From positions 24,573 to 88,572 of the IMG/VR virus record IMGVR_UViG_3300018044_000001: 64,000 nt of DNA, one strand, 5' to 3'. Of this stretch, positions 30,402-40,283 are shown piece by piece. The position numbers were made by a program, and so were the translations under genes. This stretch comes from a virus. The first letter of the stretch is position 1, and each line of letters starts with the position of its first letter. The notes beneath the pieces are model-generated. The model did not search any database. It worked only from the letters and a program-made list of their open reading frames with translations, and had not been told where the DNA came from.

Positions 30402-30851
30402 TTAGATTCCTAACGCAGCACCCCACGCGTCACGAAAGATGCGAGGTATGACAGGTAGCGCCTTGTCGACGCCTGGCTGCAGGTAGGCGTACGGGGGCTG
30501 GTTGAAGTGTCTGCCCAAACTGTCCGTACCCGTGAAACCCAGCTCGATGCGACGACCATAGATCATTGTCGGTGCGACAGATATGGTGTATTTGCCAGGT
30601 CCGAGCATGATCGGCTCTGGTGGGATGAGCATGATGGACCGACGCAACGAACCTGTCACTACGTTCGGACGGTTGCCACCTACGTGCGGTTGTCCCTTCG
30701 GATGGTTGCCCTCGAACTCACGCCTGGCGTTGTCCCTAATGAGCAGAGCACCTGTAGCCGTACCCGCTTTGGTTGCCTCGTTGATTCGCTTGATCAACGC
30801 GTCCATGGAATCGTTGAAACCCTTGGCGTCGATTTTGAAGCCACCAGGCAT
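30402..30851 (-). CDS. HK97 gp10-like neck/morphogenesis protein
   Basis: PNVVTGSLRRSI, YGRRIELG, PYAYLQP motifs; TAATG coupling to portal. Confidence 0.75.
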   Translation of the reverse strand: MPGGFKIDAKGFNDSMDALIKRINEATKAGTATGALLIRDNARREFEGNHPKGQPHVGGNRPNVVTGSLRRSIMLIPPEPIMLGPGKYTISVAPTMIYGRRIELGFTGTDSLGRHFNQPPYAYLQPGVDKALPVIPRIFRDAWGAALGI

Positions 30852-33800
30852 TACTCGTACCCCGTCACTGCTGTGCTTGCACAACGACACAGAGGATGCT
30901 CGGGAATGGACGGATCATCGGTGCCAACGTCATACGGGCCATTGTCGGCATTCTCTAGGCAATCCTCGCACGCGTTGTCTTCGGCAATCCACCCCCACTG
31001 CGAGATACCGTTGACTTCGTATGTATCCTGCGATGCTGTCTCCGCTGCCCGACAACATTCTGTGTCCGCTATCATGTACGCATTGGCCGTCACGGCATCA
31101 CTTAGTGACGTGGCAATCGTGTCTACACTGTCGCCCCTCGCAATCCCATCCGCGAGCACATTGCCAACACGGTCAATCCCGTTGTCAATCGCAGACTTGA
31201 TAGTGATGCCAGCCTGCTCAAGTAGTTGCTGCAGTCCACCATTGGCAACGAGGTCGGATGCTTGGATACTGCCAGGAGTCCAGTCGTCCCATGACAACGC
31301 AGTACCGATAGCCATCTGTGCATCAGGTGATATCTGTTGTGCCGCTGCGTGCGAGCCGACCATGTAACTCTCGGCAATAAGATCACGCAGGATTTGCGCG
31401 GCTGATGACTGTGCTACGGTGACGTTCATTGCAGCAGCAGATTGGGCAATGCCCTGGTCGTCTGCACCACCACCAGCATCAGCGACTGCCTTCGCAGCAG
31501 TCTTACGCTGTGCCTCATCTATCGCCTGGTGCAACCCCTTGGTGCTGTGCTTCAGTGCTGCCGTGAGTAATGGGGCGTAGTGGGCGACGATGGCGTCGCG
31601 GAGGGCGTCGATGGGGTGTGTTGCTTTTGCTAACCACGGAGGTAGTGTCCATGATCCCACAGACTTTGCAGCAGATGGTGTCTGCACCGTGAACTGAATC
31701 GTGCCGTCCTTCTTGATACCTGTCACTACGTAGTCAGATCCACGAGGCAGGATCACCTCGCCTTGTCCTGTCCACGTCATCAGTGCGTGCGAACCGGCAG
31801 GTATGTTGATCTCTACGTTGTGGCCAGGACGGAAGTCGCCGTATTGATTGGCCATTTCACGCAGCATCGTCGTGGACTCATAACCAGGATCGTGATAGGT
31901 GTCGCCTACTTTCAATCCTTCAAGCGGTGCAGCATTCGTAAAGCCACGGTAGACCGTCGTGTCTGCTGTTACTGTCCTGCTTGCGATGGCACTGTCAAGA
32001 CCCTTGACCTGACCAGCGAAGCCACGAGTAGAACCGCTTTCGCGTAGTCCGATGTTAACATCAGCACCGCCTGCGGGCCTCGTGTAATCCGATACCGCTC
32101 GTGCCTCAGATGCAGTCAGCGGACGCTCTTCCTTGAACGTTCCCGCGTCGTGAATGGCTGCCAATTGTCGCTCTGCCGCTGTTGGCTTCATGCCTTCAAA
32201 CGGCGGCGAGTAAACGCAGGGATTGCTCTCGCCGCTCGACGCTGCGGCACGACCGCCACCACCACTTATGTGTGCAGTGCGTGCACCATCCTCGTTGTGA
32301 CTACCACCAGTGACGTCAGGCGGGCGACTAGCACTAGGGGATGAAGTTCTGCCGCCGCCACGGCCATACAGATCCTCGTAAGATGTGACGTGTCCGCCAC
32401 CGCTGCCAAACTCGCCCTGCGCGTTACGCTCCTGAGTCTCCCACGAGTCGCCCCATTTGGCTAGTTGCTCAGGGGTAGTTAGCCCACGAGAGTGGGCGGG
32501 ATCTTTTGGGTCTGCTTTGACCGCATTGTTAGCTTTGTCGCCACCCAAAGCAAATCGCACTACTTCATCGCCACGATGTACCGACAGGTAATCAAACGTC
32601 AGCGGTGTCAGTGGTAGTGGCTTAGGTAGCGGATCATCAGGGTCTAGATAAGCAAGCGTGATGTGGGGCATGAAGTCATGTTCACTAGCACTCAGGTCTT
32701 CCAGTGCTTCGCGCAAGTCAGTAATGCCAGCAATGTTGGGCACAACATACACTGGTTTCAGTCCGTCGCTACTTGCCGATGGAGCAAACGACGCAATGCC
32801 GCTGATGGTACCAGTCAAAGGTCCGGGCGCGTCCTTCGCTGCCTTACGGGCTGCATCGCATGCTTCAGCAAATGACTTATCGTCAACGTCTGGACCGAGA
32901 TAAACGACCGTCAGGTGAAAATCTGTGATTCCACCAGATAGCGGAGTAATCACACCGTCAGGCACGTCAAGAGATATCATGCCAGAACGTGGATTCAGGT
33001 CGTACGCCTGTGCACTCTTTACCGCGCCGAGCAGGCTCCAATCTGAACTTTGGCATTCCACTCTGACAGCACTATTCCCAACAACGTCACTAGGCTCCCA
33101 CCATGCAGCAGCAGCAATCTCGCCGGTGTCGCGATCAGTCACGTCACCGAGGTCGATGGCAGACTCGTGCTTGATTTGCAGAACGAACGCTTGGTACGTA
33201 CCGTCAGGTGTGAGCCATGAGCCGGTGATGTCACCTTGAGGAAGTGGCAGGCCAACTTCGGCTTGCCATTCCCTGGTAGCACCAGAGAACGCGTCCTCGC
33301 CTTTGTGACACTGGCCGCCGGGCCATTCCCATGTGCCCGGTGCTAGATGGTCGTCGTTCACGCGCTGCACCATGAGAACACGGCCGGTATCGGCGGCGAG
33401 GACGATTATGCCAGCAGCGTCGGGTTGGGCGTTGACGACGGACTTGATAGCATCGAGATCACCAGCACGTCCGAGGTCGTTTAGATGTCTGCCCTGTACG
33501 CTGGCCACTGCGGAGAACGAAAAGTCGCGCCAGCTTCCGCGGTCGATGCGTGCCTTGGCGAACTTGACGAATGACTTGAGTTCCTTCTCTGCGTCCGTGT
33601 CGGATTCGCTCTTGGAATCGCTGGCAGAACTGTCCTTGCTTGGACTTGATCCTGTAAGCTCAGTATTTCCGTCAGAGTCTGTCGAAGTTCCTCCAGCTGC
33701 GCTACCAGTTGGCTTGCGTCCGCTGTTATCGTCAGGTGTACTTCCGTTGGCATTAGCGTCTGTGCCTCCATTGTTTGCGGCAGGTGGTGGAACTGGTGAA

Positions 33801-35518
33801 CCGTCAGGTGCGGTCGGAAGGGGCTTGCCGTCAGGACCGACAAATACTTGCTTGGGGGGTTCTGGTGGATTGAGGGTGGCTTCGGTGTTCGCGTCTTGGA
33901 CGGCGAGAGTGCCCTTGAGGAACACTGGACCTTGTGCTCCGGCAATGAACGGTTCGTCGGCTTCCGGCATGGAGTACAGGGGCAGCCCGTTCTTTGCGCG
34001 CCAGTCGTTCAACGTGATACGACCGTTGTTGACGGTCTGTGTGTCGGCGTTGGCCTGTTGCAGAATGTCCTGCTCAGAACCGCCAGTGTCTTGACAAGTA
34101 GCGGTAATCTCACGACCGATACCAAGGTAGCGACGAGCTAGGTCGTTTTGTACGTCAATCAGGAAGTTGACAAACGCTTCAGTGACGAAGTGTTCGGTCT
34201 GGTCTTCCTCGCCCTCCATCTGGCGACCGCCAGACAGTCCAGCCTTTGCCTGCACACCTAACTGTGTCGCGGGAACGCCAAACTTGGACCCCATCTGAAT
34301 GATGAGAAAATTGTCGTAGTCCGACTTGTAGTGCTCTTCAATTTGCGGTGGCCACTCGGGCTTCATGCCGGGAGGCAACAGGAACGCTTGCTGACGACGG
34401 TTGATCTGACCGCTCAAACGGTCATTCATGGTCTGTTCATATCCGAATTGTTGTTCAGGCGTCCACCCTGTCGGATTGTCCTTGTCCATCGTGTAGTACG
34501 TTTTGGGGGACATTCCGTAAACGTATTCAGACCTCATCCACGCCTGACGCTGCAGATACGTCGTAGCGACTGTCATGACCTCTTCGGTCGGAGGATAGCC
34601 ATAGACAGATTCGGGACGGGGACGACGGATGTAATACGCCAACTGGTCGCTGGCAAACTCACCCTCGACGGGGCCATCGCCAGCTTGGAATTCCCCGCGT
34701 GGAAAGCCGTATAAGATTTGCTGGAAGGCAGGGGCGGGAGGCTCGGGAGGAAAGCCCTGATTGTCGAGCAGTATCTTAATCGTGCTCGTGTCAATCGGTG
34801 CCAGCGCAAAGAGATCGCCGCCAAGGGTCCGCTGTGGGTATATGCAGATACCGTCATATACCAGGGACTGCCAGATGATCTCCGCGAGCCACTGTGAGGG
34901 CGAGTGCTTGCTGCGCTGGTCGGGACGCTCGAAGAACGACTTAACGCGATCAAGCTCGGTGCCGTATTTGTCGGCGGCGAGGGCCATGGCGCGGGCGTGG
35001 TTCGCTTCGCCCGTGTCTCGCATAATCTGTTCAATAATTGAGTCGCTATACCCCCACGACCAATCGCGACCACAGATGCCGTCTTGTACCAACTGGATGC
35101 ACCTATTGACCACATCACATTCTTCTGCAATCCACTTCAGCGCGGTCCACGGGAGTGCTCTGTCCGCGAGTTGTAAATTTATGGCTACCAGGTACTGTGC
35201 ACGACGCGGTAGGGCACGACCGCCAGGACCAAGCGCGTCTATCGCGTCAGGGAAGAGTGGTACGCCCGGACCAAAGCCAGAGTTGAAATCACCCAGAGGA
35301 CGAGGCAACGGCACATATCCCGGCACTTGTCCTGCCGTCTGTGCAAACGGTGACGACGGGTTGGGAATGTACGTAGCACCGCTAACAGCGCGGCCCTGCG
35401 AGTTGGCAGCGGCCGCGACAATATCGCGACTCATCGCCTTCTCGACGCCCGCCTCAACCGCTGCACTGAGTGCAGCCTGTTTGCGTTCTGTACGGCGCGA
35501 CAGGATGGGGATGGCCAA
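30851..35518 (-). CDS. Portal protein fused to Nudix, 2H phosphoesterase, ADP-ribosyltransferase and MuF domains
   Basis: N-terminal portal (PIDTSTIK, YGYPPTE, ITLNDWRAKNGLP); WEWPGG..REWQAEVG; HLT...HIT; VYRG/YESTT/QGE; C-terminal C..C...HPLCRC. Confidence 0.88.
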   Translation of the reverse strand: MAIPILSRRTERKQAALSAAVEAGVEKAMSRDIVAAAANSQGRAVSGATYIPNPSSPFAQTAGQVPGYVPLPRPLGDFNSGFGPGVPLFPDAIDALGPGGRALPRRAQYLVAINLQLADRALPWTALKWIAEECDVVNRCIQLVQDGICGRDWSWGYSDSIIEQIMRDTGEANHARAMALAADKYGTELDRVKSFFERPDQRSKHSPSQWLAEIIWQSLVYDGICIYPQRTLGGDLFALAPIDTSTIKILLDNQGFPPEPPAPAFQQILYGFPRGEFQAGDGPVEGEFASDQLAYYIRRPRPESVYGYPPTEEVMTVATTYLQRQAWMRSEYVYGMSPKTYYTMDKDNPTGWTPEQQFGYEQTMNDRLSGQINRRQQAFLLPPGMKPEWPPQIEEHYKSDYDNFLIIQMGSKFGVPATQLGVQAKAGLSGGRQMEGEEDQTEHFVTEAFVNFLIDVQNDLARRYLGIGREITATCQDTGGSEQDILQQANADTQTVNNGRITLNDWRAKNGLPLYSMPEADEPFIAGAQGPVFLKGTLAVQDANTEATLNPPEPPKQVFVGPDGKPLPTAPDGSPVPPPAANNGGTDANANGSTPDDNSGRKPTGSAAGGTSTDSDGNTELTGSSPSKDSSASDSKSESDTDAEKELKSFVKFAKARIDRGSWRDFSFSAVASVQGRHLNDLGRAGDLDAIKSVVNAQPDAAGIIVLAADTGRVLMVQRVNDDHLAPGTWEWPGGQCHKGEDAFSGATREWQAEVGLPLPQGDITGSWLTPDGTYQAFVLQIKHESAIDLGDVTDRDTGEIAAAAWWEPSDVVGNSAVRVECQSSDWSLLGAVKSAQAYDLNPRSGMISLDVPDGVITPLSGGITDFHLTVVYLGPDVDDKSFAEACDAARKAAKDAPGPLTGTISGIASFAPSASSDGLKPVYVVPNIAGITDLREALEDLSASEHDFMPHITLAYLDPDDPLPKPLPLTPLTFDYLSVHRGDEVVRFALGGDKANNAVKADPKDPAHSRGLTTPEQLAKWGDSWETQERNAQGEFGSGGGHVTSYEDLYGRGGGRTSSPSASRPPDVTGGSHNEDGARTAHISGGGGRAAASSGESNPCVYSPPFEGMKPTAAERQLAAIHDAGTFKEERPLTASEARAVSDYTRPAGGADVNIGLRESGSTRGFAGQVKGLDSAIASRTVTADTTVYRGFTNAAPLEGLKVGDTYHDPGYESTTMLREMANQYGDFRPGHNVEINIPAGSHALMTWTGQGEVILPRGSDYVVTGIKKDGTIQFTVQTPSAAKSVGSWTLPPWLAKATHPIDALRDAIVAHYAPLLTAALKHSTKGLHQAIDEAQRKTAAKAVADAGGGADDQGIAQSAAAMNVTVAQSSAAQILRDLIAESYMVGSHAAAQQISPDAQMAIGTALSWDDWTPGSIQASDLVANGGLQQLLEQAGITIKSAIDNGIDRVGNVLADGIARGDSVDTIATSLSDAVTANAYMIADTECCRAAETASQDTYEVNGISQWGWIAEDNACEDCLENADNGPYDVGTDDPSIPEHPLCRCASTAVTGYE

Positions 35519-36085: not shown

Positions 36086-36103
36086 GCTCCAGTCCTCTTT
36101 TCG

Positions 36104-36177
36104 TCCTGGTGGAGGGATTCGAACCCTCAACGCGTGGTCCTTGAAGCCACCGCCTCTGCCGGTTGGGCTACACCAGG
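36104..36177 (-). tRNA. tRNA-Leu(CAA), atypical short variable arm
   Basis: Acceptor CCTGGTG/CACCAGG-A; loop TT-CAA-GG; C31:A39 mismatch. Confidence 0.65.
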
Positions 36178-36201
36178 TAGCGTTATGACATCGTAGTCCA
36201 G

Positions 36202-36273
36202 AGCCAACGACGTGAGTCGAACACGCAACAACGAAGGTACGAGCTTCGCTTCCATCCGTAGGAACTCGCTGGC
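36202..36273 (-). tRNA. tRNA-Thr(CGT)
   Basis: CGAAG-CTCGTAC-CTTCG; TTCGA T-loop. Confidence 0.8.
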
Positions 36274-36319
36274 AAGCGGCCGTTCTTGTTAAACCGGGAA
36301 CATGCCCTAAAGCCGGTCG

Positions 36320-36402
36320 TGCGGATGGTGGGACTTGAACCCACATGCCTAACGGCAGTCGCTTTTAAGGCGACCGTGTATACCAATTCCAACCACATCC
36401 GC
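36320..36402 (-). tRNA. tRNA-Leu(TAA)
   Basis: GTCGC-CTTAAAA-GCGAC; long variable arm. Confidence 0.9.
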
Positions 36403-36406
36403 GTAG

Positions 36407-36480
36407 CACCCCTGGCGGGACTCGAACCCGCATCATACCATTACGGTTACTTGCTTAGAAGACAAGACCGATACAGGGGC
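36407..36480 (-). tRNA. D-armless tRNA-Arg(TCT)-like gene
   Basis: Acceptor and T-arm intact; CTTGT-CTTCTAA-GCAAG; no D-arm. Confidence 0.7.
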
Positions 36481-36481
36481 G

Positions 36482-36557
36482 TGACGGGGGCGGGATTTGA
36501 ACCACGCGACCTCTAGGTTATGGGCCTAGCGAGCTGACCAAACTGCTCTACCCCGCG
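36482..36557 (-). tRNA. tRNA-fMet-like (CAT)
   Basis: CGCGGGG start with 1:72 mismatch; CTAGG-CCCATAA-CCTAG. Confidence 0.8.
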
Positions 36558-36629
36558 TGGCAGATGTTGGTATCGAGCCAACCAGACACGATCCTTATGA
36601 GAGATCGCCGCTTACCCTGAGCAACTGCC
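36558..36629 (-). tRNA. tRNA-Met/Ile2(CAT), degenerate
   Basis: GATCT-CTCATAA-GGATC; irregular acceptor and D-arm. Confidence 0.6.
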
Positions 36630-36631
36630 GG

Positions 36632-36704
36632 GGTGACGGGGGGAACTCGAATCCCCTTGCACTAGGGCCACAACCTAGCCGCGTACCACGATGCGTCCCG
36701 TCAC
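36632..36704 (-). tRNA. tRNA-His(GTG), possibly 8/4 fold
   Basis: CTAGG-TTGTGGC-CCTAG; C73. Confidence 0.8.
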
Positions 36705-36706
36705 AG

Positions 36707-36777
36707 TACCAGTGGAAGGTGTCGAACCTCCGTCCCAACTTTGTAAGAGTTGTCGTCTCCCGTTGACATACACTGGC
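36707..36777 (-). tRNA. tRNA-Val(TAC)
   Basis: CAACT-CTTACAA-AGTTG. Confidence 0.85.
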
Positions 36778-36781
36778 GTAG

Positions 36782-36853
36782 TGCTCCTACCCGGACTCGA
36801 ACCGAGAATGCCTGCTTAAAGGGCAGAACCGTTTCCATTACGATCATAGGAGC
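36782..36853 (-). tRNA. tRNA-Lys(TTT)
   Basis: TCTGC-CCTTTAA-GCAGG. Confidence 0.8.
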
Positions 36854-36855
36854 AA

Positions 36856-36930
36856 TGGTAGGCGACCAGGGAATCGAACCCTGTATCAGACCATATCAGA
36901 GTCTGCGATTAGCCGTCTTCTTCGTCGCCC
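36856..36930 (-). tRNA. tRNA-Ile(GAT)
   Basis: AGACT-CTGATAT-GGTCT; encoded CCA. Confidence 0.75.
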
Positions 36931-36931
36931 G

Positions 36932-37006
36932 TGGTGGTCCCTGTCGGACTCGAACCGACCTCTCTGCGTCTTCAGCGCGGCGCTAATCCGTCTCAGCTAA
37001 AGGACC
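36932..37006 (-). tRNA. tRNA-Phe(GAA)
   Basis: Loop CT-GAA-GA; encoded CCA. Confidence 0.85.
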
Positions 37007-37010
37007 GTAG

Positions 37011-37087
37011 TGCGGGCCGCGGGACTCGAACCCGCATGGACCGTATTACCCTTTCAACATTTCATAAGAATGAGGGGATACGCCCGC
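37011..37087 (-). tRNA. D-armless tRNA-Ile(TAT)-like gene
   Basis: CATT-CTTATGA-AATG; T-arm GCGGG-TTCGAGT-CCCGC; A73; no D-arm. Confidence 0.65.
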
Positions 37088-37089
37088 AA

Positions 37090-37163
37090 TGGAGCCGATG
37101 GCAGGAGTTGAACCCGCGTCTGGTGAGTACAAAACACCTGTACTTCCGTTGTACGACACCGGC
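37090..37163 (-). tRNA. tRNA-Thr(TGT)
   Basis: Loop TT-TGT-AC; encoded CCA. Confidence 0.85.
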
Positions 37164-37166
37164 AAA

Positions 37167-37314
37167 TGTCGCCCCTAGTCGCGTCGAAATCCTTGGGTAG
37201 CTAATCCCAACCTGCTGCGGTTACCAAGCGCAGCCACGACCAATGGAACCCTCCGCGTACGAGTAACGCGGCACCAGTCACGGACTATTAACCGTTGTCA
37301 GGGGTGGGGCGACA
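37167..37314 (-). ncRNA. Unidentified 148-nt structured RNA in the tRNA array
   Basis: 9-bp closing stem TGTCGCCCC/GGGGCGACA with four internal hairpins. Confidence 0.6.
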
Positions 37315-37315
37315 G

Positions 37316-37388
37316 CTCCGAGGGTAGGAATCGAACCCACGCGCACTGGGTCCAAGGCCCAGCTACGAAACCAACATCGTACCTCGGA
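37316..37388 (-). tRNA. tRNA-Gln(TTG)
   Basis: CTGGG-CCTTGGA-CCCAG. Confidence 0.85.
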
Positions 37389-37389
37389 A

Positions 37390-37463
37390 TGGAACGGCTG
37401 ACCCGACTCGAACGGGCGTATTCAGGGTGGAAACCTGACGCTCTGCCTCTGAGCTACAACCGC
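37390..37463 (-). tRNA. tRNA-Gly(TCC)
   Basis: TCAGG-TTTCCAC-CCTGA; TCCA end. Confidence 0.88.
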
Positions 37464-37464
37464 A

Positions 37465-37539
37465 TGGAGCGACTAGCGGGAGTCGAACCCGCACTTGCAC
37501 CATGGCGAGGTGCCGTCATAGCCACTAGACCATAATCGC
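37465..37539 (-). tRNA. tRNA-Gly(GCC)
   Basis: GCACC-TCGCCAT-GGTGC; TCCA end. Confidence 0.85.
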
Positions 37540-37541
37540 AT

Positions 37542-37616
37542 TGGAGCGCAGGGTCGGAATCGAACCGACGAAAATGCGGGTTGCAGCCGCACGCCTTCCC
37601 ATTCAGCCACCTACGC
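37542..37616 (-). tRNA. tRNA-Cys(GCA)
   Basis: TGCGG-CTGCAAC-CCGCA; U73 CCA. Confidence 0.88.
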
Positions 37617-37620
37617 ACAG

Positions 37621-37694
37621 CTCCGGCGGGAAGAGTCGAACTTCCATGATGAGCACCTTAACGGGATGCTGGCTTGCCATTAGCCCACACCGGA
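37621..37694 (-). tRNA. tRNA-Asn(GTT)
   Basis: GCATC-CCGTTAA-GGTGC; G73. Confidence 0.82.
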
Positions 37695-37698
37695 ATAG

Positions 37699-37770
37699 TG
37701 ATCCGTACCAGAATCGAACTGGTGTCTCAGGCTTGAGGGGCCTGCGTACGTACCTCTGTACCAACGGATC
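37699..37770 (-). tRNA. tRNA-Glu(CTC)
   Basis: CAGGC-CCCTCAA-GCCTG. Confidence 0.85.
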
Positions 37771-37786
37771 TTTGTACTAATAGACT

Positions 37787-37862
37787 TGGTACTCCCAGTC
37801 GGAATCGAACCGGCGTTTCGACCTTGAAAGAGTCGCGTCCTCTGCCGCTAGACGATGGGAGC
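37787..37862 (-). tRNA. tRNA-Glu(TTC)
   Basis: CGACT-CTTTCAA-GGTCG; encoded CCA. Confidence 0.9.
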
Positions 37863-37867
37863 CTTCG

Positions 37868-38050
37868 TTACATCCACACCAACTGTTCCACCATCGCATT
37901 GATCGACAACCCGACGAACGACAGCAACAGAATCAGACCCATGAACACCAACGACACTACGTCAAGTTGTACCGTCAAGAATAGCGGGATCGCAAGTAGC
38001 CACGCGGTGCGATAGATCCACGACTCGATGCGTTGCAGGCGGTCAATCAT
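37868..38050 (-). CDS. 60-aa two-helix membrane protein inside the tRNA array
   Basis: AAAAGGAG SD, ATG 38050, two hydrophobic segments. Confidence 0.65.
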   Translation of the reverse strand: MIDRLQRIESWIYRTAWLLAIPLFLTVQLDVVSLVFMGLILLLSFVGLSINAMVEQLVWM

Positions 38051-38069
38051 GTGGCTCCTTTTGTTGCAG

Positions 38070-38153
38070 CGGAAAGTCGGCGAGTCGGACGCCATGGCTT
38101 GCACCACCAACGCGCTTCCAACGCGTGCCCATCACCGTCAGGGTTGACTTTCC
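38070..38153 (-). tRNA. tRNA-Ser(GGA), 8/4 fold
   Basis: GGAAAGTC/GACTTTCC 8 bp; T-stem GGCG/CGCC; loop TT-GGA-AG. Confidence 0.82.
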
Positions 38154-38216
38154 ATGGCGCAACGCCTACACGCGCAGTGCACAGCGCCACCTCCACCCAC
38201 TTCCTCGGCGTTGCAG

Positions 38217-38300
38217 CGGATGACGGGCCATTCGAAGACCAAGCCGTGAAGCTCACACCGCTTTCGAGGCGGGTCTGGTTCCCTGTCCAGTTCATCATCC
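38217..38300 (-). tRNA. tRNA-Ser(CGA), 8/4 fold
   Basis: GGATGATG/CGTCATCC; T-stem GGTC/GGCC; loop CT-CGA-AA. Confidence 0.82.
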
Positions 38301-38304
38301 AGAG

Positions 38305-38389
38305 CGGTAGGGTGAGAGCACGATTCCCAGGCCAAGAGGCCCCAGACGGGTTCAAGCCGTCGCCGCTAACCCTGAACGGTTACCCTACC
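38305..38389 (-). tRNA. tRNA-Ser(TGA), 8/4 fold
   Basis: GGTAGGGT/ACCCTACC; GACGG-CTTGAAC-CCGTC. Confidence 0.8.
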
Positions 38390-38390
38390 G

Positions 38391-38474
38391 CGGAAGACGG
38401 GATACTCGAAAACCACACCTTGCAGTGCGCACTCGTTAGCAGCGAGGCCCGGCACCCTGTCCGGTTCGTCTTCC
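38391..38474 (-). tRNA. tRNA-Ser(GCT), 8/4 fold
   Basis: GGAAGACG/CGTCTTCC; loop CT-GCT-AA. Confidence 0.8.
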
Positions 38475-38478
38475 TTAG

Positions 38479-38551
38479 CGTCGCCGGTGGGACTCGAACC
38501 CACATCTCCCATTACGGCTACCGACTTAGGAGGTCGGGCCGGTACGACGAC
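38479..38551 (-). tRNA. D-armless tRNA-Arg(CCT)-like gene
   Basis: GTCGTCG/CGGCGAC; CCGAC-CTCCTAA-GTCGG; no D-arm. Confidence 0.7.
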
Positions 38552-38552
38552 A

Positions 38553-38626
38553 TGGAGCCTACGCACAGAGTTGAACTGTGATCTCTGGTGTACCACGCCA
38601 GGACTCTTCCGCTGAGCTACGCAGGC
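38553..38626 (-). tRNA. tRNA-Thr(GGT)
   Basis: Loop GT-GGT-AC; encoded CCA. Confidence 0.8.
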
Positions 38627-38736
38627 AATAGGTAGAGCTTCCCACACTCCCGAGTGCGTACATTCACCCGGCTACGTCGTAAACGACGGGTGTACCAGAT
38701 GGCGTTGGCTGTCATGGCTGGTGGTAAAACGGCTCG

Positions 38737-38810
38737 TACCCCCGGCACGATTCGAACGCGCGTCTCCTGATCCGTAGTCAGGTGCTACAAATCCACTCAG
38801 CTACGGGGGC
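38737..38810 (-). tRNA. tRNA-Arg(ACG)
   Basis: CCTGA-CTACGGA-TCAGG. Confidence 0.9.
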
Positions 38811-38811
38811 A

Positions 38812-38889
38812 TGGCGGAAATGACGGGATTCGAACCCGCGGTCTGGACCTTGACGGGGTCCCGAGGACGGCCAACTCCTCTACATCTCC
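38812..38889 (-). tRNA. tRNA-Asp(GTC)
   Basis: GGACC-CCGTCAA-GGTCC; GCCA end. Confidence 0.88.
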
Positions 38890-38893
38890 ATCG

Positions 38894-38966
38894 CTCCGAG
38901 GGGAGGATTCGGACCCCCGACATCAAGGTTCAGAGCCTTGCGTTCTGCCCACTGAACTACCTCGGA
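38894..38966 (-). tRNA. tRNA-Gln(CTG)
   Basis: CAAGG-CTCTGAA-CCTTG. Confidence 0.88.
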
Positions 38967-38971
38967 ATGAG

Positions 38972-39045
38972 TCTGGGTGGCAGGATTTGAACCTGCGCTC
39001 TCCTGGTCCCAGGCCAGGCGCGTTTCCAAGCTTCGCTACACCCAG
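38972..39045 (-). tRNA. tRNA-Pro(TGG)
   Basis: CCTGG-CCTGGGA-CCAGG; C1:G72, A73. Confidence 0.88.
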
Positions 39046-39048
39046 TTG

Positions 39049-39120
39049 TCCACCTGAAGGGAATCGAACCCCCACGAACTCGTTAAGAGCGAGTCACGCT
39101 AGCCATTACGTCACAGGTGG
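39049..39120 (-). tRNA. tRNA-Lys(CTT)
   Basis: ACTCG-CTCTTAA-CGAGT; overlaps the 3' end of the HNH ORF. Confidence 0.85.
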
Positions 39121-39742
39121 TCAATCGTGCAATATGTTTACGGATGGCATTATCCGACACGCCTAGCTTGCGACCCAGTTGTAGGTAGTTGCTGTCTTGC
39201 AACATGGCAAGTAGTTCGTCCAGGGGTGGCCATGCGATCTTTGTCTTATGCGGCACCTTGTAACGGCGCTGTACTTTGACTTTGGGTGGCTTCTCTGGAT
39301 TGGTGACCTGAGCATGACAGTTCGGACACAGAAACCGCAAGTTCTCTTTGCGGTCGTCCTCCCAATCGTTGTTAATATGGTCAACCTCTAGCACCAGTGA
39401 GTGGCCCTGCCACTTTCCAGTGTTGTCGCAGCCTTCGCAGCGATATTCCATGCCCGATTCGATCATCGCTCGGCGCAGTCGCACTGCTTGCTGTCGCCTC
39501 GATCCGGGTGCTTTCAGAACCAGAACTTGGTCCCATGTCATTTTCTGGGGGGACGCCTTGCCGCGACGAGAAGCTTGTCCCAAGAAATGCGATGTGTCAA
39601 TTCCTAACGTCTTGATCTTGCGAGAGATCCACGTATGAGTACCACCGGCTTGTCGTCTGCCGAGACGACGAATAACTTCGGCAACAGAAACACTGCTGGC
39701 GACAGCCGTTCTCAATTCGGTTTCATCAATCAATCTGTACAT
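39083..39742 (-). CDS. HNH homing endonuclease inserted in the tRNA array
   Basis: CEGC...LEVDHINNDWEDDRKENLRFLCPNCH, with flanking HTH-like segments. Confidence 0.9.
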   Translation of the reverse strand: MYRLIDETELRTAVASSVSVAEVIRRLGRRQAGGTHTWISRKIKTLGIDTSHFLGQASRRGKASPQKMTWDQVLVLKAPGSRRQQAVRLRRAMIESGMEYRCEGCDNTGKWQGHSLVLEVDHINNDWEDDRKENLRFLCPNCHAQVTNPEKPPKVKVQRRYKVPHKTKIAWPPLDELLAMLQDSNYLQLGRKLGVSDNAIRKHIARLTTCDVMASVTRS

Positions 39743-39827
39743 AATGCAACATCCTGTCTCTACACAGGGGGTGGGGCGTTGGGTGGTAGAGCACCCGCAG
39801 CCCCATGAAACGCCTCTACGCGTTCAG

Positions 39828-39909
39828 TACGGACGGAGAGATTCGAACTCTCAACGAGCAAAGCTCAGTGGGGCCTAGACCCACCGCGTAACCATTCCGC
39901 CACGTCCGC
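39828..39909 (-). tRNA. tRNA-Leu(TAG)
   Basis: GTGGG-TCTAGGC-CCCAC; long variable arm. Confidence 0.85.
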
Positions 39910-39910
39910 G

Positions 39911-39985
39911 TGGTGGAGGATAAGGGAGTCGAACCCTTAATTCCTGCGTGCAAAACAGGTGTGTTTCCGCTAGCACTAATCCCCC
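39911..39985 (-). tRNA. tRNA-Ala(TGC)
   Basis: G3:U70; loop TT-TGC-AC; ACCA end. Confidence 0.9.
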
Positions 39986-40052
39986 ATGGAAACCGCCAGC
40001 TGACATGGTAGAACCAGCCCGACCTATTACGGGATCGGTGCTGACGGCTTCG

Positions 40053-40136
40053 TCACAGCGGTGGGAGTCGAACCCACGTAGCACAAGGCGCTGGTTTTAC
40101 GGACCAGAGCAACAATCCGACAGTTGCCTCACTGTG
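40053..40136 (-). tRNA. tRNA-Tyr(GTA) with C1:G72
   Basis: CTGGT-CCGTAAA-ACCAG; long variable arm. Confidence 0.8.
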
Positions 40137-40211
40137 TAGACTACGATGTCAAGGACCACATCGACTGTACTGCGGCGACGCCTTCATGGCTAGTCGTCCA
40201 GTCTCTCTGCG

Positions 40212-40283
40212 CGGGACCGCCAGGAGTCGAACCTGGTTTTGAGAGGTTTTGGAGACCTCGTGCCTACCCGTTGGCTCGTTCCC
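40212..40283 (-). tRNA. tRNA-Trp(CCA)
   Basis: GAGGT-CTCCAAA-ACCTC; G73. Confidence 0.82.

What the first reader, a model, noticed from the sequence alone, without database searches (positions are those of the whole stretch)
36407..38551. Three D-armless tRNA-like genes for rare codons, with a D-loop-like motif moved to the 3' side
Seen: 36407-36480 (anticodon TCT), 37011-37087 (TAT) and 38479-38551 (CCT) share one non-cloverleaf plan: 7-bp acceptor, TA(T/C), a 4-bp helix stacked on the anticodon stem with a 3' bulge (CGGT/ACCG, CCCT/AGGG, CGGC/GCCG), 7-nt anticodon loop, then single-stranded TAAT(AC)GG...AT, then a canonical T-arm. Stems differ in sequence but stay paired. The AATGG resembles the D-loop G18G19 that docks on the T-loop. 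The anticodons read AGA, AGG and AUA, rare codons in high-GC Actinobacteria, and the array has no canonical tRNA for AGA or AGG. Inference: a rewired tRNA fold that keeps the L-shape, serving either in decoding or as a decoy for anticodon nucleases. I cannot check whether it has been described.
Basis: partly seen in the sequence, partly recalled or inferred. Interest (0 to 1): 0.88.

Follow-up and report, generated by a model that had tools for sequence, protein, structure and literature searches.

The report
Three rewired tRNA genes in phage
Three genes in this phage's tRNA cluster look like real arginine and isoleucine tRNAs whose D-arm pieces lie on either side of the anticodon arm instead of before it, a conserved non-cloverleaf design that standard gene finders miss and that I found in no paper.

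Summary
Observation confirmed. Genes at 36480-36407 (TCT), 37087-37011 (TAT) and 38551-38479 (CCT), minus strand, fill 1-4-nt slots in a tRNA array of an 88.6-kb peat phage. ARAGORN and Rfam tRNA miss all three, and the genome has no cloverleaf tRNA for AGA, AGG or AUA. The plan is acceptor, UAU/UAC, a 3-4-bp helix enclosing the anticodon arm, a D-loop-like UAAU..GG stretch, then the T-arm.

A covariance model built from 18 such genes found 76 distinct members, nearly all in viral contigs. All four helices covary: 92% of cells pair, against 59% after shuffling. Arg-anticodon members carry A after GG (48 of 52). Ile-like members carry U (22 of 24) and always A73. These match the published ArgRS and IleRS identity marks.

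In a relative with a syntenic array, the CCT slot holds a normal cloverleaf tRNA-Arg. Felix O1 has an unannotated member.

Best reading: working tRNAs with a permuted D-arm (0.7). No expression or charging is shown. The window's copies deviate at position 20 (U and G) and position 37 (G).

This scan has reported the same Arg and Ile families before, on other DNA. Eight literature searches found no description.

The parts
36407..36480 (-). Rewired tRNA gene, anticodon TCT (reads AGA); 74 nt, discriminator G, no encoded CCA
   Evidence: Sequence; MFE fold equals the plan; R1 83.2 bits; missed by ARAGORN and Rfam tRNA; it starts directly after tRNA-Met (36481) and ends 4 nt before tRNA-Leu-TAA (36402)
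36457..36459 (-). Anticodon TCT of cand1 (AGA on the + strand)
   Evidence: Read; it sits in the middle of the 7-nt loop CUUCUAA
36467..36470 (-). 5' strand (CGGU) of the extra helix of cand1, continuous with the anticodon stem; the topological equivalent of D-stem positions 22-25 (inferred)
   Evidence: Pairs with 36444-36447; the first three pairs covary across the family
36432..36447 (-). 3' strand of the extra helix (ACCG, 36447-36444) followed by the D-loop-like stretch UAAUGGUAUGAU (36443-36432); the equivalent of D-stem 10-13, the D-loop and the end of the variable region (inferred)
   Evidence: UAAU, GG and the final AU are near-invariant in the family; the base after GG is U here, against A in 48 of 52 Arg-type members
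37011..37087 (-). Rewired tRNA gene, anticodon TAT (reads AUA); 77 nt, discriminator A, loop CUUAUGA (G at position 37), G7.G66 mismatch
   Evidence: Sequence; R1 68.2 bits; U after GG and A73 as in the other Ile-like members; identical in relatives L370 and L371; it lies 2 nt after tRNA-Thr-TGT and 4 nt before tRNA-Phe
37064..37066 (-). Anticodon TAT of cand2 (ATA on the + strand)
   Evidence: Read
37036..37051 (-). 3' strand of the extra helix (GGG, 37051-37049) and the D-loop-like stretch UAAUACGGUCCAU (37048-37036) of cand2
   Evidence: alignment A1
38479..38551 (-). Rewired tRNA gene, anticodon CCT (reads AGG); 73 nt, discriminator G
   Evidence: Sequence; MFE fold equals the plan; R1 78.9 bits; it lies 1 nt after tRNA-Thr-GGT; its positional orthologue in L371 is a cloverleaf tRNA-Arg(CCT)
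38528..38530 (-). Anticodon CCT of cand3 (AGG on the + strand)
   Evidence: Read
38504..38518 (-). 3' strand of the extra helix (GCCG, 38518-38515) and the D-loop-like stretch UAAUGGGAGAU (38514-38504) of cand3
   Evidence: the base after GG is G here
36103..40283 (-). The tRNA array that holds the three genes: 27 cloverleaf tRNAs plus low-scoring Ser(x3) and a second CAT gene

Best explanation
The three genes encode working elongator tRNAs: two tRNA-Arg (UCU for AGA, CCU for AGG) and one tRNA-Ile-type (UAU for AUA). They belong to a widespread, almost purely viral class with a permuted core. In that class, the block made of one D-stem strand plus the D-loop lies after the anticodon arm instead of before it.

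Shown here: a 3-4-bp helix encloses the anticodon arm and covaries. It is followed by a conserved UAAU..GG stretch and a conserved AU just before a canonical T-arm.

Inferred: this helix stacks on the anticodon stem like a D-stem. U8 pairs with the first A of UAAU (A14). The second A pairs with the U before the T-stem (15:48). GG docks on the T-loop. The L-shape would therefore be kept, because each altered backbone join links nucleotides that are neighbours in a normal tRNA (9 to 22, 43-45 to 10, 21 to 46-48). This mapping rests on textbook tRNA-Phe geometry, which I recalled.

Also inferred: the genes are transcribed with the array, cut out by RNase P and 3' nucleases, given CCA by the host enzyme, charged by host ArgRS or IleRS, and used to read AGA, AGG and AUA. 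No other tRNA of the phage reads these codons.
For: (1) Structure. RNAalifold on an unfitted MAFFT alignment of 18 genes predicts exactly this plan. On 76 distinct sequences, 92.3% of cells pair against 59.4% in shuffles and 36-45% when the partner is slid. The extra-helix pairs show CG67/UA6/AU3, GC30/CG20/AU14/UA9/UG2 and CG36/GC22/UA7/GU1. The rival hairpin pairs in only 44% of cells.
(2) Tertiary marks. GG is present in 74 of 76. A15:U48 occurs in 73, G15:C48 in 2 and A:C in 1.
(3) Identity marks follow the anticodon. A follows GG in 48 of 52 Arg-anticodon members and in 0 of 24 Ile/Met/Val-type members, where U follows GG in 22 of 24. A73 occurs in 24 of 24 Ile-like members (Fisher p 5e-16, not corrected for relatedness). 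These are the published bacterial determinants: Arg uses A20, C35, U/G36 and A/G73; Ile uses A73, U20, A35, U36, A37 and A38 (PMC9976931, Table 1 and passages).
(4) Slot logic. The genes sit 1-4 nt from their neighbours. With them and three odd Ser genes the array covers all 20 amino acids. In loci holding 8 or more other tRNAs, 0 of 27 Arg-type rewired genes co-occur with a cloverleaf gene of the same anticodon.
(5) Natural swap. In the syntenic array of relative L371 (portal 84% identical), the slot of cand3 holds a cloverleaf tRNA-Arg(CCT) scoring 54.6 bits with Rfam. It shares the 5' flank, the start of the acceptor, the GAGAUG before the T-stem and the 3' end. The slot of cand1 holds another TCT gene with a related acceptor.
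(6) Felix O1 carries an unannotated member with TCT and an encoded CCA at NC_005282.1 25951-26029. Its genome paper noted that a tRNA for the over-used AGA codon was expected but not found (PMC3185647, passages).
(7) E. coli HisRS, EF-Tu and the ribosome accept an engineered tRNA without a D-arm (PMC11551756, abstract).
(8) The phage uses AGA, AGG and ATA at 4.3, 5.9 and 5.9 per 1000 codons (crude ORF set).
Against: No experiment or read-level data shows a processed, charged RNA.

The window's own copies deviate exactly at putative identity positions. Cand1 has U and cand3 has G after GG; these are 2 of the 4 exceptions among 52 Arg-type members. Cand2 is the only one of 15 TAT members with G at position 37, and the only one of 76 with a non-pair at 7-66.

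Ascertainment is biased. The collection scans required UAAU, a UUCGAGU-type T-arm and, GUAUC, so the invariance of those motifs is partly built in. Alignment A4 is fitted to the model. Many sequences are related, so counts are not independent events. The three window genes were among the model's seeds.

AGA, AGG and AUA are minor codons in the phage too (7%, 10% and 13% of their families), and the host is unknown, so codon demand is not demonstrated.

A second CAT gene (36557-36629) could serve AUA if it is lysidinylated, which would make cand2 redundant.
Confidence: 0.7

Rival explanations
1. They are tRNA mimics that do not decode. Examples would be decoys or sponges for host anticodon nucleases or other tRNA-directed defences, or regulators. 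On this view they keep an anticodon arm and acceptor/T minihelix, but a rewired core keeps them out of translation.
For: The fold is non-canonical and almost restricted to viruses: 61 hits in 100 viral loci against 5 in 100 bacterial loci found with the same pattern. The window's copies lack the A20-like base or A37. HNH endonuclease genes and allele shuffling around the array suggest conflict.
Against: A decoy has no need for synthetase-specific marks, yet position 20 and the discriminator track the anticodon class. The genes replace cloverleaf isoacceptors rather than accompany them: 0 of 27 Arg-type cases co-occur with one. A cloverleaf tRNA-Arg occupies the same slot in a relative. 29 of 68 members encode CCA. 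No nuclease-related evidence was found.
Confidence: 0.12
2. In this particular phage the three copies are decaying or neutral remnants of a family that works elsewhere. The losses of A20 (cand1, cand3) and of A37 and the 7-66 pair (cand2) would mark loss of function.
For: The deviations listed and the 7-66 non-pair. Cand2 has the lowest model score of the three (68 bits). A second CAT gene might cover AUA.
Against: All helices are intact and the spacing in the array is exact. No other gene of the genome reads AGA or AGG, while the phage uses about 230 such codons in my ORF set. Cand2 is 77/77 identical in a relative whose neighbouring tRNAs have diverged to about 70-88%. All three are identical in L370 while other slots there were replaced.
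Confidence: 0.08
3. The RNAs are functional tRNAs but of the mitochondrial 'D-armless' kind. On this view the extended stem is only a longer anticodon stem, and the UAAU..GG stretch is a passive connector or small hairpin with no D-loop role. There would then be no permuted D-arm and no canonical elbow.
For: ARAGORN in mitochondrial mode reports parts of cand1 and cand3 as D-replacement-loop tRNAs. No 3D evidence is available.
Against: GG (74 of 76), the UAAU motif, a canonical UUCGA T-loop and the A:U to G:C swap between the 15-like and 48-like positions are conserved. Mitochondrial D-armless tRNAs have no need for these. The base after GG behaves like position 20 of ArgRS and IleRS identity sets. 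The hairpin alternative pairs in only 44% of cells.
Confidence: 0.1

Closest known systems
Canonical bacterial and phage tRNA-Arg(UCU/CCU) and tRNA-Ile(UAU) (Rfam RF00005). The nearest example is the cloverleaf tRNA-Arg(CCT) at L371:5263-5334 in the syntenic array of contig IMGVR_UViG_3300044801_000013.
   Same: 7-bp acceptor and discriminator, 5-bp anticodon stem, 7-nt loop with U33, T-arm with a UUCGA loop, D-loop-type UAAU..GG motif, the same anticodon, and the same slot in the array. It also shares the flanks and gene ends.
   Different: The order of segments differs. The 10-13-like strand and the D-loop follow the anticodon arm, so there is no hairpin between acceptor and anticodon arm. 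Rfam tRNA and default ARAGORN do not detect these genes.
Metazoan mitochondrial D-armless tRNAs such as mt-tRNA-Ser(AGY), and the engineered D-armless mini HisT accepted by E. coli (PMC11551756, abstract; PMC7609411, passages).
   Same: There is no D hairpin 5' of the anticodon arm, and the anticodon-side helix is lengthened. Both show that translation can tolerate such cores.
   Different: Here the D-stem and D-loop elements (GG, 14/15-like As) and a canonical T-loop are retained and conserved. Length is normal (73-77 nt). The setting is phage and bacterial, not organellar.
Unannotated members of the same design in cultured phages: Salmonella phage Felix O1 (NC_005282.1 25951-26029), Limnohabitans phage DC31 (PQ492658.1 44884-44959) and Agrobacterium phage Atu_ph04 (MF403007.1 112818-112893).
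   Same: The same plan and high R1 scores (64-80 bits). No tRNA feature is annotated at these places.
   Different: They carry A after GG, and Felix O1 also encodes CCA. The window's Arg-type copies have U or G there and no CCA.
Circularly permuted tRNA genes of the red alga Cyanidioschyzon merolae
   Same: tRNA segments are rearranged at the gene level.
   Different: In that case the whole gene is permuted and processing restores a normal cloverleaf. Here the 5' and 3' acceptor strands are at the gene ends and the mature RNA itself would have the altered topology.

Membership tests
Canonical cloverleaf tRNA (Rfam RF00005) | Acceptor stem of 7 bp with a discriminator, and a T-arm of 5 bp with a UUCRA-type loop | tested here: met
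   Cand2 has one G.G at 7-66.
Canonical cloverleaf tRNA (Rfam RF00005) | Anticodon arm of 5 bp with a 7-nt loop, U33 and a purine at 37 | tested here: met
   Loops are CUUCUAA, CUCCUAA and CUUAUGA. Cand2's stem has one U.U.
Canonical cloverleaf tRNA (Rfam RF00005) | D-arm hairpin between positions 9 and 26, 5' of the anticodon arm | tested here: not met
   Only 3 nt separate the acceptor from the helix that runs into the anticodon stem.
Canonical cloverleaf tRNA (Rfam RF00005) | Score at or above the Rfam gathering threshold (29 bits) | tested here: not met
   No RF00005 hit at E<=1 for any of the three. Cand3 gets only tRNA-Sec at 25.1 bits.
Rewired (split D-arm) phage tRNA class, as defined here by model R1 | U8-A9-(U/C) linker, a 3-4-bp helix enclosing the anticodon arm, UAAU..GG after it, AU before the T-stem, and an R1 score far above that of cloverleaf tRNAs | tested here: met
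   83.2, 78.9 and 68.2 bits against 30 bits or less for cloverleaf tRNAs. Caveat: the three were seeds of R1.
Bacterial tRNA-Arg identity set (PMC9976931 Table 1: A20, C35, U/G36, A/G73) | C35, U36 and a G/A discriminator | tested here: met
   Cand1 has UCU and G73; cand3 has CCU and G73.
Bacterial tRNA-Arg identity set (PMC9976931 Table 1) | A at position 20, the base after G18-G19 | tested here: not met
   U in cand1 and G in cand3, against A in 48 of 52 Arg-type family members. The assignment of position 20 in the rewired loop is inferred.
Bacterial tRNA-Ile identity set (PMC9976931 Table 1: A73, U20, A35, U36, A37, A38) | A73, A35, U36, A38 and U after GG | tested here: met
   Cand2.
Bacterial tRNA-Ile identity set (PMC9976931 Table 1) | A37 (the site of t6A) | tested here: not met
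   Cand2 has G37; the other 14 of the 15 TAT members have A37.
Mitochondrial D-armless tRNAs | The D-arm is replaced by a short connector, and the D-loop/T-loop interaction elements are lost | tested here: not met
   GG, UAAU and a canonical T-loop are retained and conserved.
Any working tRNA | A processed RNA of about 75 nt ending in CCA, aminoacylated, and used on ribosomes | not testable with these tools
   Only contigs of RNA libraries could be laid, and these cannot show transcripts or RNA ends.

The most novel reading that the evidence does not exclude
Phages maintain a second, non-cloverleaf tRNA topology (a split D-arm) that can replace cloverleaf tRNAs slot for slot. It would be charged by host class Ia synthetases through a relocated position 20. 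It would be selected because the altered core escapes host factors that recognise the normal D-arm and core, such as tRNA-cleaving defence nucleases or degradation pathways. Identity would have switched repeatedly between Arg and Ile within this scaffold.
Probability: 0.25. Interest if true: 0.9.

Novelty: new variant of a known kind. Interest (0 to 1): 0.8.

Why it matters
The cloverleaf is treated as universal outside organelles. [quoted passage not shown]

A conserved, covarying and widespread natural tRNA design with a different strand order would have four consequences if it works in bacterial translation:
- It would show that the L-shape can be built from another topology.
- It would reveal tRNA genes that current annotation pipelines miss, so phage codon and tRNA analyses are incomplete. 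Felix O1's 'missing' AGA tRNA is an example.
- It would give a natural test bed for how ArgRS, IleRS, RNase P, EF-Tu and the ribosome read the tRNA core.
- It would offer scaffolds for orthogonal tRNAs.

This window adds a natural swap experiment: rewired and cloverleaf alleles of the same isoacceptor sit in the same array slot of related phages.

Tried and rejected
Megablast of the array against 50,697 phage records found only 78-nt tRNA-Ala/Thr matches in Bacillus phages and no relative.

It returned mostly class II tRNA-Leu genes whose variable-arm loop happens to hold the same heptamer. It was useful only for L009/L074, L041 and L043.

L128, L129 and L134 have a different build and score only 22 bits with R1, so I dropped them.

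Alternative fold: a small hairpin formed by the last bases of the helix 3' strand with GG. It pairs in 44% of cells, so I rejected it.

MFE energies alone are not convincing (z -1.6 to -2.7).

Expression: Logan contigs of two metatranscriptome runs were laid. One 151-nt contig (X9 record 24, 36355-36505, 0 differences) spans cand1. Contigs from RNA libraries can derive from DNA and show neither RNA ends nor strand, so I count this as no evidence either way. Parts without cover mean nothing.

DNA relatives in runs X2 and X3 show no listed differences inside cand2, while tRNA-Phe next to it differs at 9 or more places. This is consistent.

The portal protein found 1 weak match (31% identity) in 401 genomes of the phylum of a Bryobacteraceae MAG, and 0 in 401 genomes of the phylum of a Solirubrobacterales MAG. 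This gives no host call.

No CCA-adding enzyme (PF01743) or RtcB (PF01139) was found in the phage.

Portal relatives at 67% identity or less (78 of the 80 loci) hold no R1 hit, and the seven of them that I scanned with ARAGORN hold no tRNA array in the flanks held. They therefore gave no covariation for the window's own genes.

Literature: eight full-text searches and look-ups in PMC7609411, PMC9976931 and PMC6582537 found no description of a phage or bacterial tRNA with this strand order. Supplements were not seen, and subscription journals are not covered.

Full report
**Setting.** The window is bases 24573-88572 of an 88,572-bp IMG/VR virus record with direct terminal repeats, rated 100% complete. 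It has about 57% G+C. Its DNA is held mainly by peat, wetland and pond metagenomes. On the minus strand, just upstream of an HNH gene and a 1555-aa portal fusion, lies a tRNA array at 36103-40283. Default ARAGORN tRNAs there and none elsewhere in the genome. Rfam tRNA confirms 22 of them at E<=1. None has anticodon TCT, CCT or TAT, and none is a tRNA-Ser.

Each has these segments in order:
- a 7-bp acceptor;
- UAU or UAC;
- a short helix running without a break into the anticodon stem on its 5' strand and separated from it by a bulge on its 3' strand;
- a 7-nt anticodon loop;
- a single-stranded UAAU(AC)GG... stretch of 11-13 nt;
- a T-arm with a UUCGAGU loop;
- the 3' acceptor strand and a discriminator.

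Cand1 and cand3 fold this way as their minimum-energy structure; cand2 does not. Cand2 has a G.G at 7-66 and a U.U at the top of its anticodon stem. The genes fit their slots precisely. Cand1 starts directly after tRNA-Met and ends 4 nt before tRNA-Leu. Cand2 lies 2 nt after tRNA-Thr and 4 nt before tRNA-Phe. Cand3 lies 1 nt after tRNA-Thr. ARAGORN and Rfam tRNA miss all three.

**A family, not three oddities.** Motif scans of IMG/VR returned many contigs with the same plan. I aligned 18 genes with MAFFT (A1). RNAalifold, without guidance, predicts acceptor, a 3-bp helix enclosing the anticodon arm, anticodon stem and T-stem; 18 of 20 pairs show double changes. A covariance model built on this alignment (R1) separates the class (46-87 bits) from cloverleaf tRNAs (30 bits or less) in the same loci. 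It found:
- 61 matches in the 100 viral loci that I searched (46 distinct);
- 5 matches in 100 bacterial-genome loci retrieved with the same loose pattern;
- only the three known genes in the window's genome.

On 76 distinct sequences (A4, model-fitted), 92.3% of cells pair against 59.4% in shuffles and 36-45% with slid partners. The first three pairs of the enclosing helix show CG67/UA6/AU3, GC30/CG20/AU14/UA9/UG2 and CG36/GC22/UA7/GU1. The fourth pair, present in cand1 and cand3, is unpaired in 65 of 76. A competing small hairpin pairs in only 44% of cells.

Caveats: the scans forced UAAU, the T-arm motif and, in two scans, GUAUC. Sequences are related to each other. The window's genes were seeds of the model.

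**What the single-stranded stretch is.** The stretch begins UAAU (76, 76, 74 and 73 of 76). It holds GG (74 of 76) and ends AU just before the T-stem (75 and 73 of 76). GG and the final AU were not required by the pattern. The second A and the final U change together to G and C in the only two sequences that have G there (A:U 73, G:C 2, A:C 1). The two are related to each other, so this is probably one event. That is how the 15:48 Levitt pair behaves.

Read against textbook tRNA geometry (recalled, so inferred), the 3' strand of the helix plus this stretch equals D-stem 10-13 plus the D-loop (A14, R15, G18, G19). The 5' strand equals 22-25. The gene order is therefore acceptor, 8-9, [22-25], anticodon arm, [10-13 and D-loop], end of the variable region, T-arm. 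Each new join (9 to 22, 43-45 to 10, 21 to 46-48) links residues that are neighbours in the normal L-shape, so the fold could be kept. 'Split D-arm' describes this better than 'D-armless'.

**Signs of aminoacylation identity.** The 76 members carry these anticodons: TCT 40, TAT 15, GAT 7, TCG 5, CCT 4, ACG 2, and CAT, GCG and TAC once each.
- The base after GG is A in 48 of 52 Arg-anticodon members and in 0 of 24 others. In those others it is U in 22.
- The discriminator is A in 24 of 24 Ile-like members, and G (23), A (21) or U (8) in Arg-type members.

The published bacterial determinants are A20, C35, U/G36 and A/G73 for Arg, and A73, U20, U21, A35, U36, A37 and A38 for Ile (PMC9976931, Table 1 and passages seen). 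A mimic that is never charged would have no reason to keep this link.

Both classes occur within the same bulge subtypes, for example ..GAAA-GGG and ..CGUUAA... Cand2 shares its core with TCT genes such as L132:1697-1772. Identity seems to have switched within the scaffold.

**Signs of use in decoding.**
- With the three genes, a second CAT gene and three odd Ser genes that only relaxed ARAGORN modes find, the array covers all 20 amino acids and every codon box. Without them it lacks AGR, AUA and all Ser codons.
- Across loci holding at least 8 other tRNAs, 0 of 27 Arg-type rewired genes co-occur with a cloverleaf gene of the same anticodon. 7 of 22 Ile/Met/Val-type genes do (some loci are near-duplicates). 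Default ARAGORN overlapped only 3 of 84 family hits.
- The phage uses AGA, AGG and ATA at 4.3, 5.9 and 5.9 per 1000 codons in a crude set of 87 ORFs, and 4, 6 and 11 times in the portal gene. These are minor codons, but they are used.

**A natural swap.** Portal-based relatives include L370 (96% identity), with all three genes identical. They also include L371 (84%), whose array is syntenic. L371 holds the identical TAT gene (77/77), although most neighbouring tRNAs have diverged or been replaced. After tRNA-Thr-GGT it carries a cloverleaf tRNA-Arg(CCT) (Rfam 54.6 bits; D-loop with GG followed by A). After tRNA-Met it carries a TCT gene with a 3-bp D-stem, no GG and a UUUGACU T-loop, which Rfam misses. 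The CCT pair shares the 5' flank, the first four acceptor bases, GAGAUG before the T-stem and the 3' end. The TCT pair shares acceptor bases and the 3' flank. So the same isoacceptor slot is filled by a cloverleaf allele in one phage and a rewired allele in its relative. That is what functional equivalence predicts.

**Cultured phages.** R1 finds one member each in three records:
- Felix O1 (NC_005282.1 25951-26029, 64 bits; TCT, A after GG, encoded CCA);
- Agrobacterium phage Atu_ph04;
- Limnohabitans phage DC31.

None is annotated as a tRNA. The Felix O1 genome paper listed AGA among over-used codons and remarked that a tRNA for it 'might have been expected' (PMC3185647, passages).

**What speaks against, or is open.**
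- Nothing here shows an RNA, its ends or its charging. RNA-library contigs cannot show these.
- The window's genes deviate at the very positions that argue for identity elsewhere: U and G after GG in cand1 and cand3, G37 and a 7-66 non-pair in cand2.
- These deviations may reflect an unusual host synthetase, weak function or decay. The phage's own cloverleaf tRNA-Arg(ACG) does have A after GG.

**Prior knowledge.** Eight full-text searches and three targeted look-ups found no description of this design. A 2020 review of non-canonical tRNAs does not mention phage (0 occurrences). A 2024 paper states that all known bacterial tRNAs are cloverleaves, and shows that E. coli HisRS, EF-Tu and the ribosome accept an engineered D-armless tRNA (PMC11551756, abstract).

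This scan's own notes report the same Arg and Ile families on other genomes many times. I reached the reading before opening them. I tested one of their claims, the Felix O1 gene, myself.

**Verdict.** These are very probably real tRNA genes of a conserved split-D-arm class (0.7 for working decoders). This window adds three copies in one array, a CCU member, a cloverleaf/rewired allele swap in one slot, and copies with atypical identity positions.

Noticed in passing
window 38390-38474, 38304-38389, 38069-38153 (minus strand): Three Ser-anticodon genes (GCT, TGA, GGA) with a long variable arm, an 8-bp acceptor stem and a short, irregular T-stem of about 4 bp. Two have odd T-loops (UCCGACU, AUCGUGC). 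Default ARAGORN and Rfam tRNA miss them. The L371 orthologue of the GGA gene scores 31.7 bits with tRNA-Sec. The geometry recalls 8/4 allo-tRNA or tRNA-Sec (PMC7609411 passages).
   Followed up: partly
window 37164-37314 (minus strand): A 150-nt gap in the array folds with a 9-bp terminal stem (UGUCGCCCC/GGGGCGACA) and internal hairpins (-60.7 kcal/mol, z -1.9). It has no Rfam hit. Contigs of two RNA libraries cover it with 0 differences (X8 record 18, X9 record 26).
   Followed up: partly
window 36557-36629 (minus strand): A second CAT-anticodon tRNA with a weak D-arm and a U.U in the acceptor. It is found only with relaxed ARAGORN settings. It could be an elongator Met or a lysidine-type Ile2.
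   Followed up: no
window 36103-40283 compared with L370:5600-9420 and L371:4380-7920: The arrays of related phages are mosaic, allele by allele. Against L370 (portal 96% identical) most tRNAs are identical, but Ala, Leu-TAG, Lys-CTT, Pro, both Glu, Val, His and both Met slots hold very different sequences. HNH endonuclease genes sit in or next to the arrays.
   Followed up: partly
L371:7572-7641: This tRNA-Arg(TCT) allele has a 3-bp D-stem, a 6-nt D-loop without GG and a UUUGACU T-loop, so both partners of the G19:C56 contact are missing. Rfam tRNA does not report it at E<=0.01.
   Followed up: partly
window 36781-36853 (minus strand): By ARAGORN's numbering and my hand count, the tRNA-Lys(TTT) has C rather than U at position 33 of the anticodon loop (CCUUUAA).
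   Followed up: no
window 30851-35518 (minus strand): A 1555-aa ORF joins a portal domain to NUDIX-like, RNA-ligase/2H-like and MuF/minor-head-like regions by PHROG hits.
   Followed up: no
family alignment A2/A4 (for example L144, L146, L149, L242 against L199, L196, L236, L212 and window 37011-37087): Arg-type and Ile-type rewired genes share the same bulge and helix subtypes (GAAA-GGG; CGUUAA). Anticodon, the base after GG and the discriminator change together. This suggests repeated identity switches within one scaffold.
   Followed up: partly
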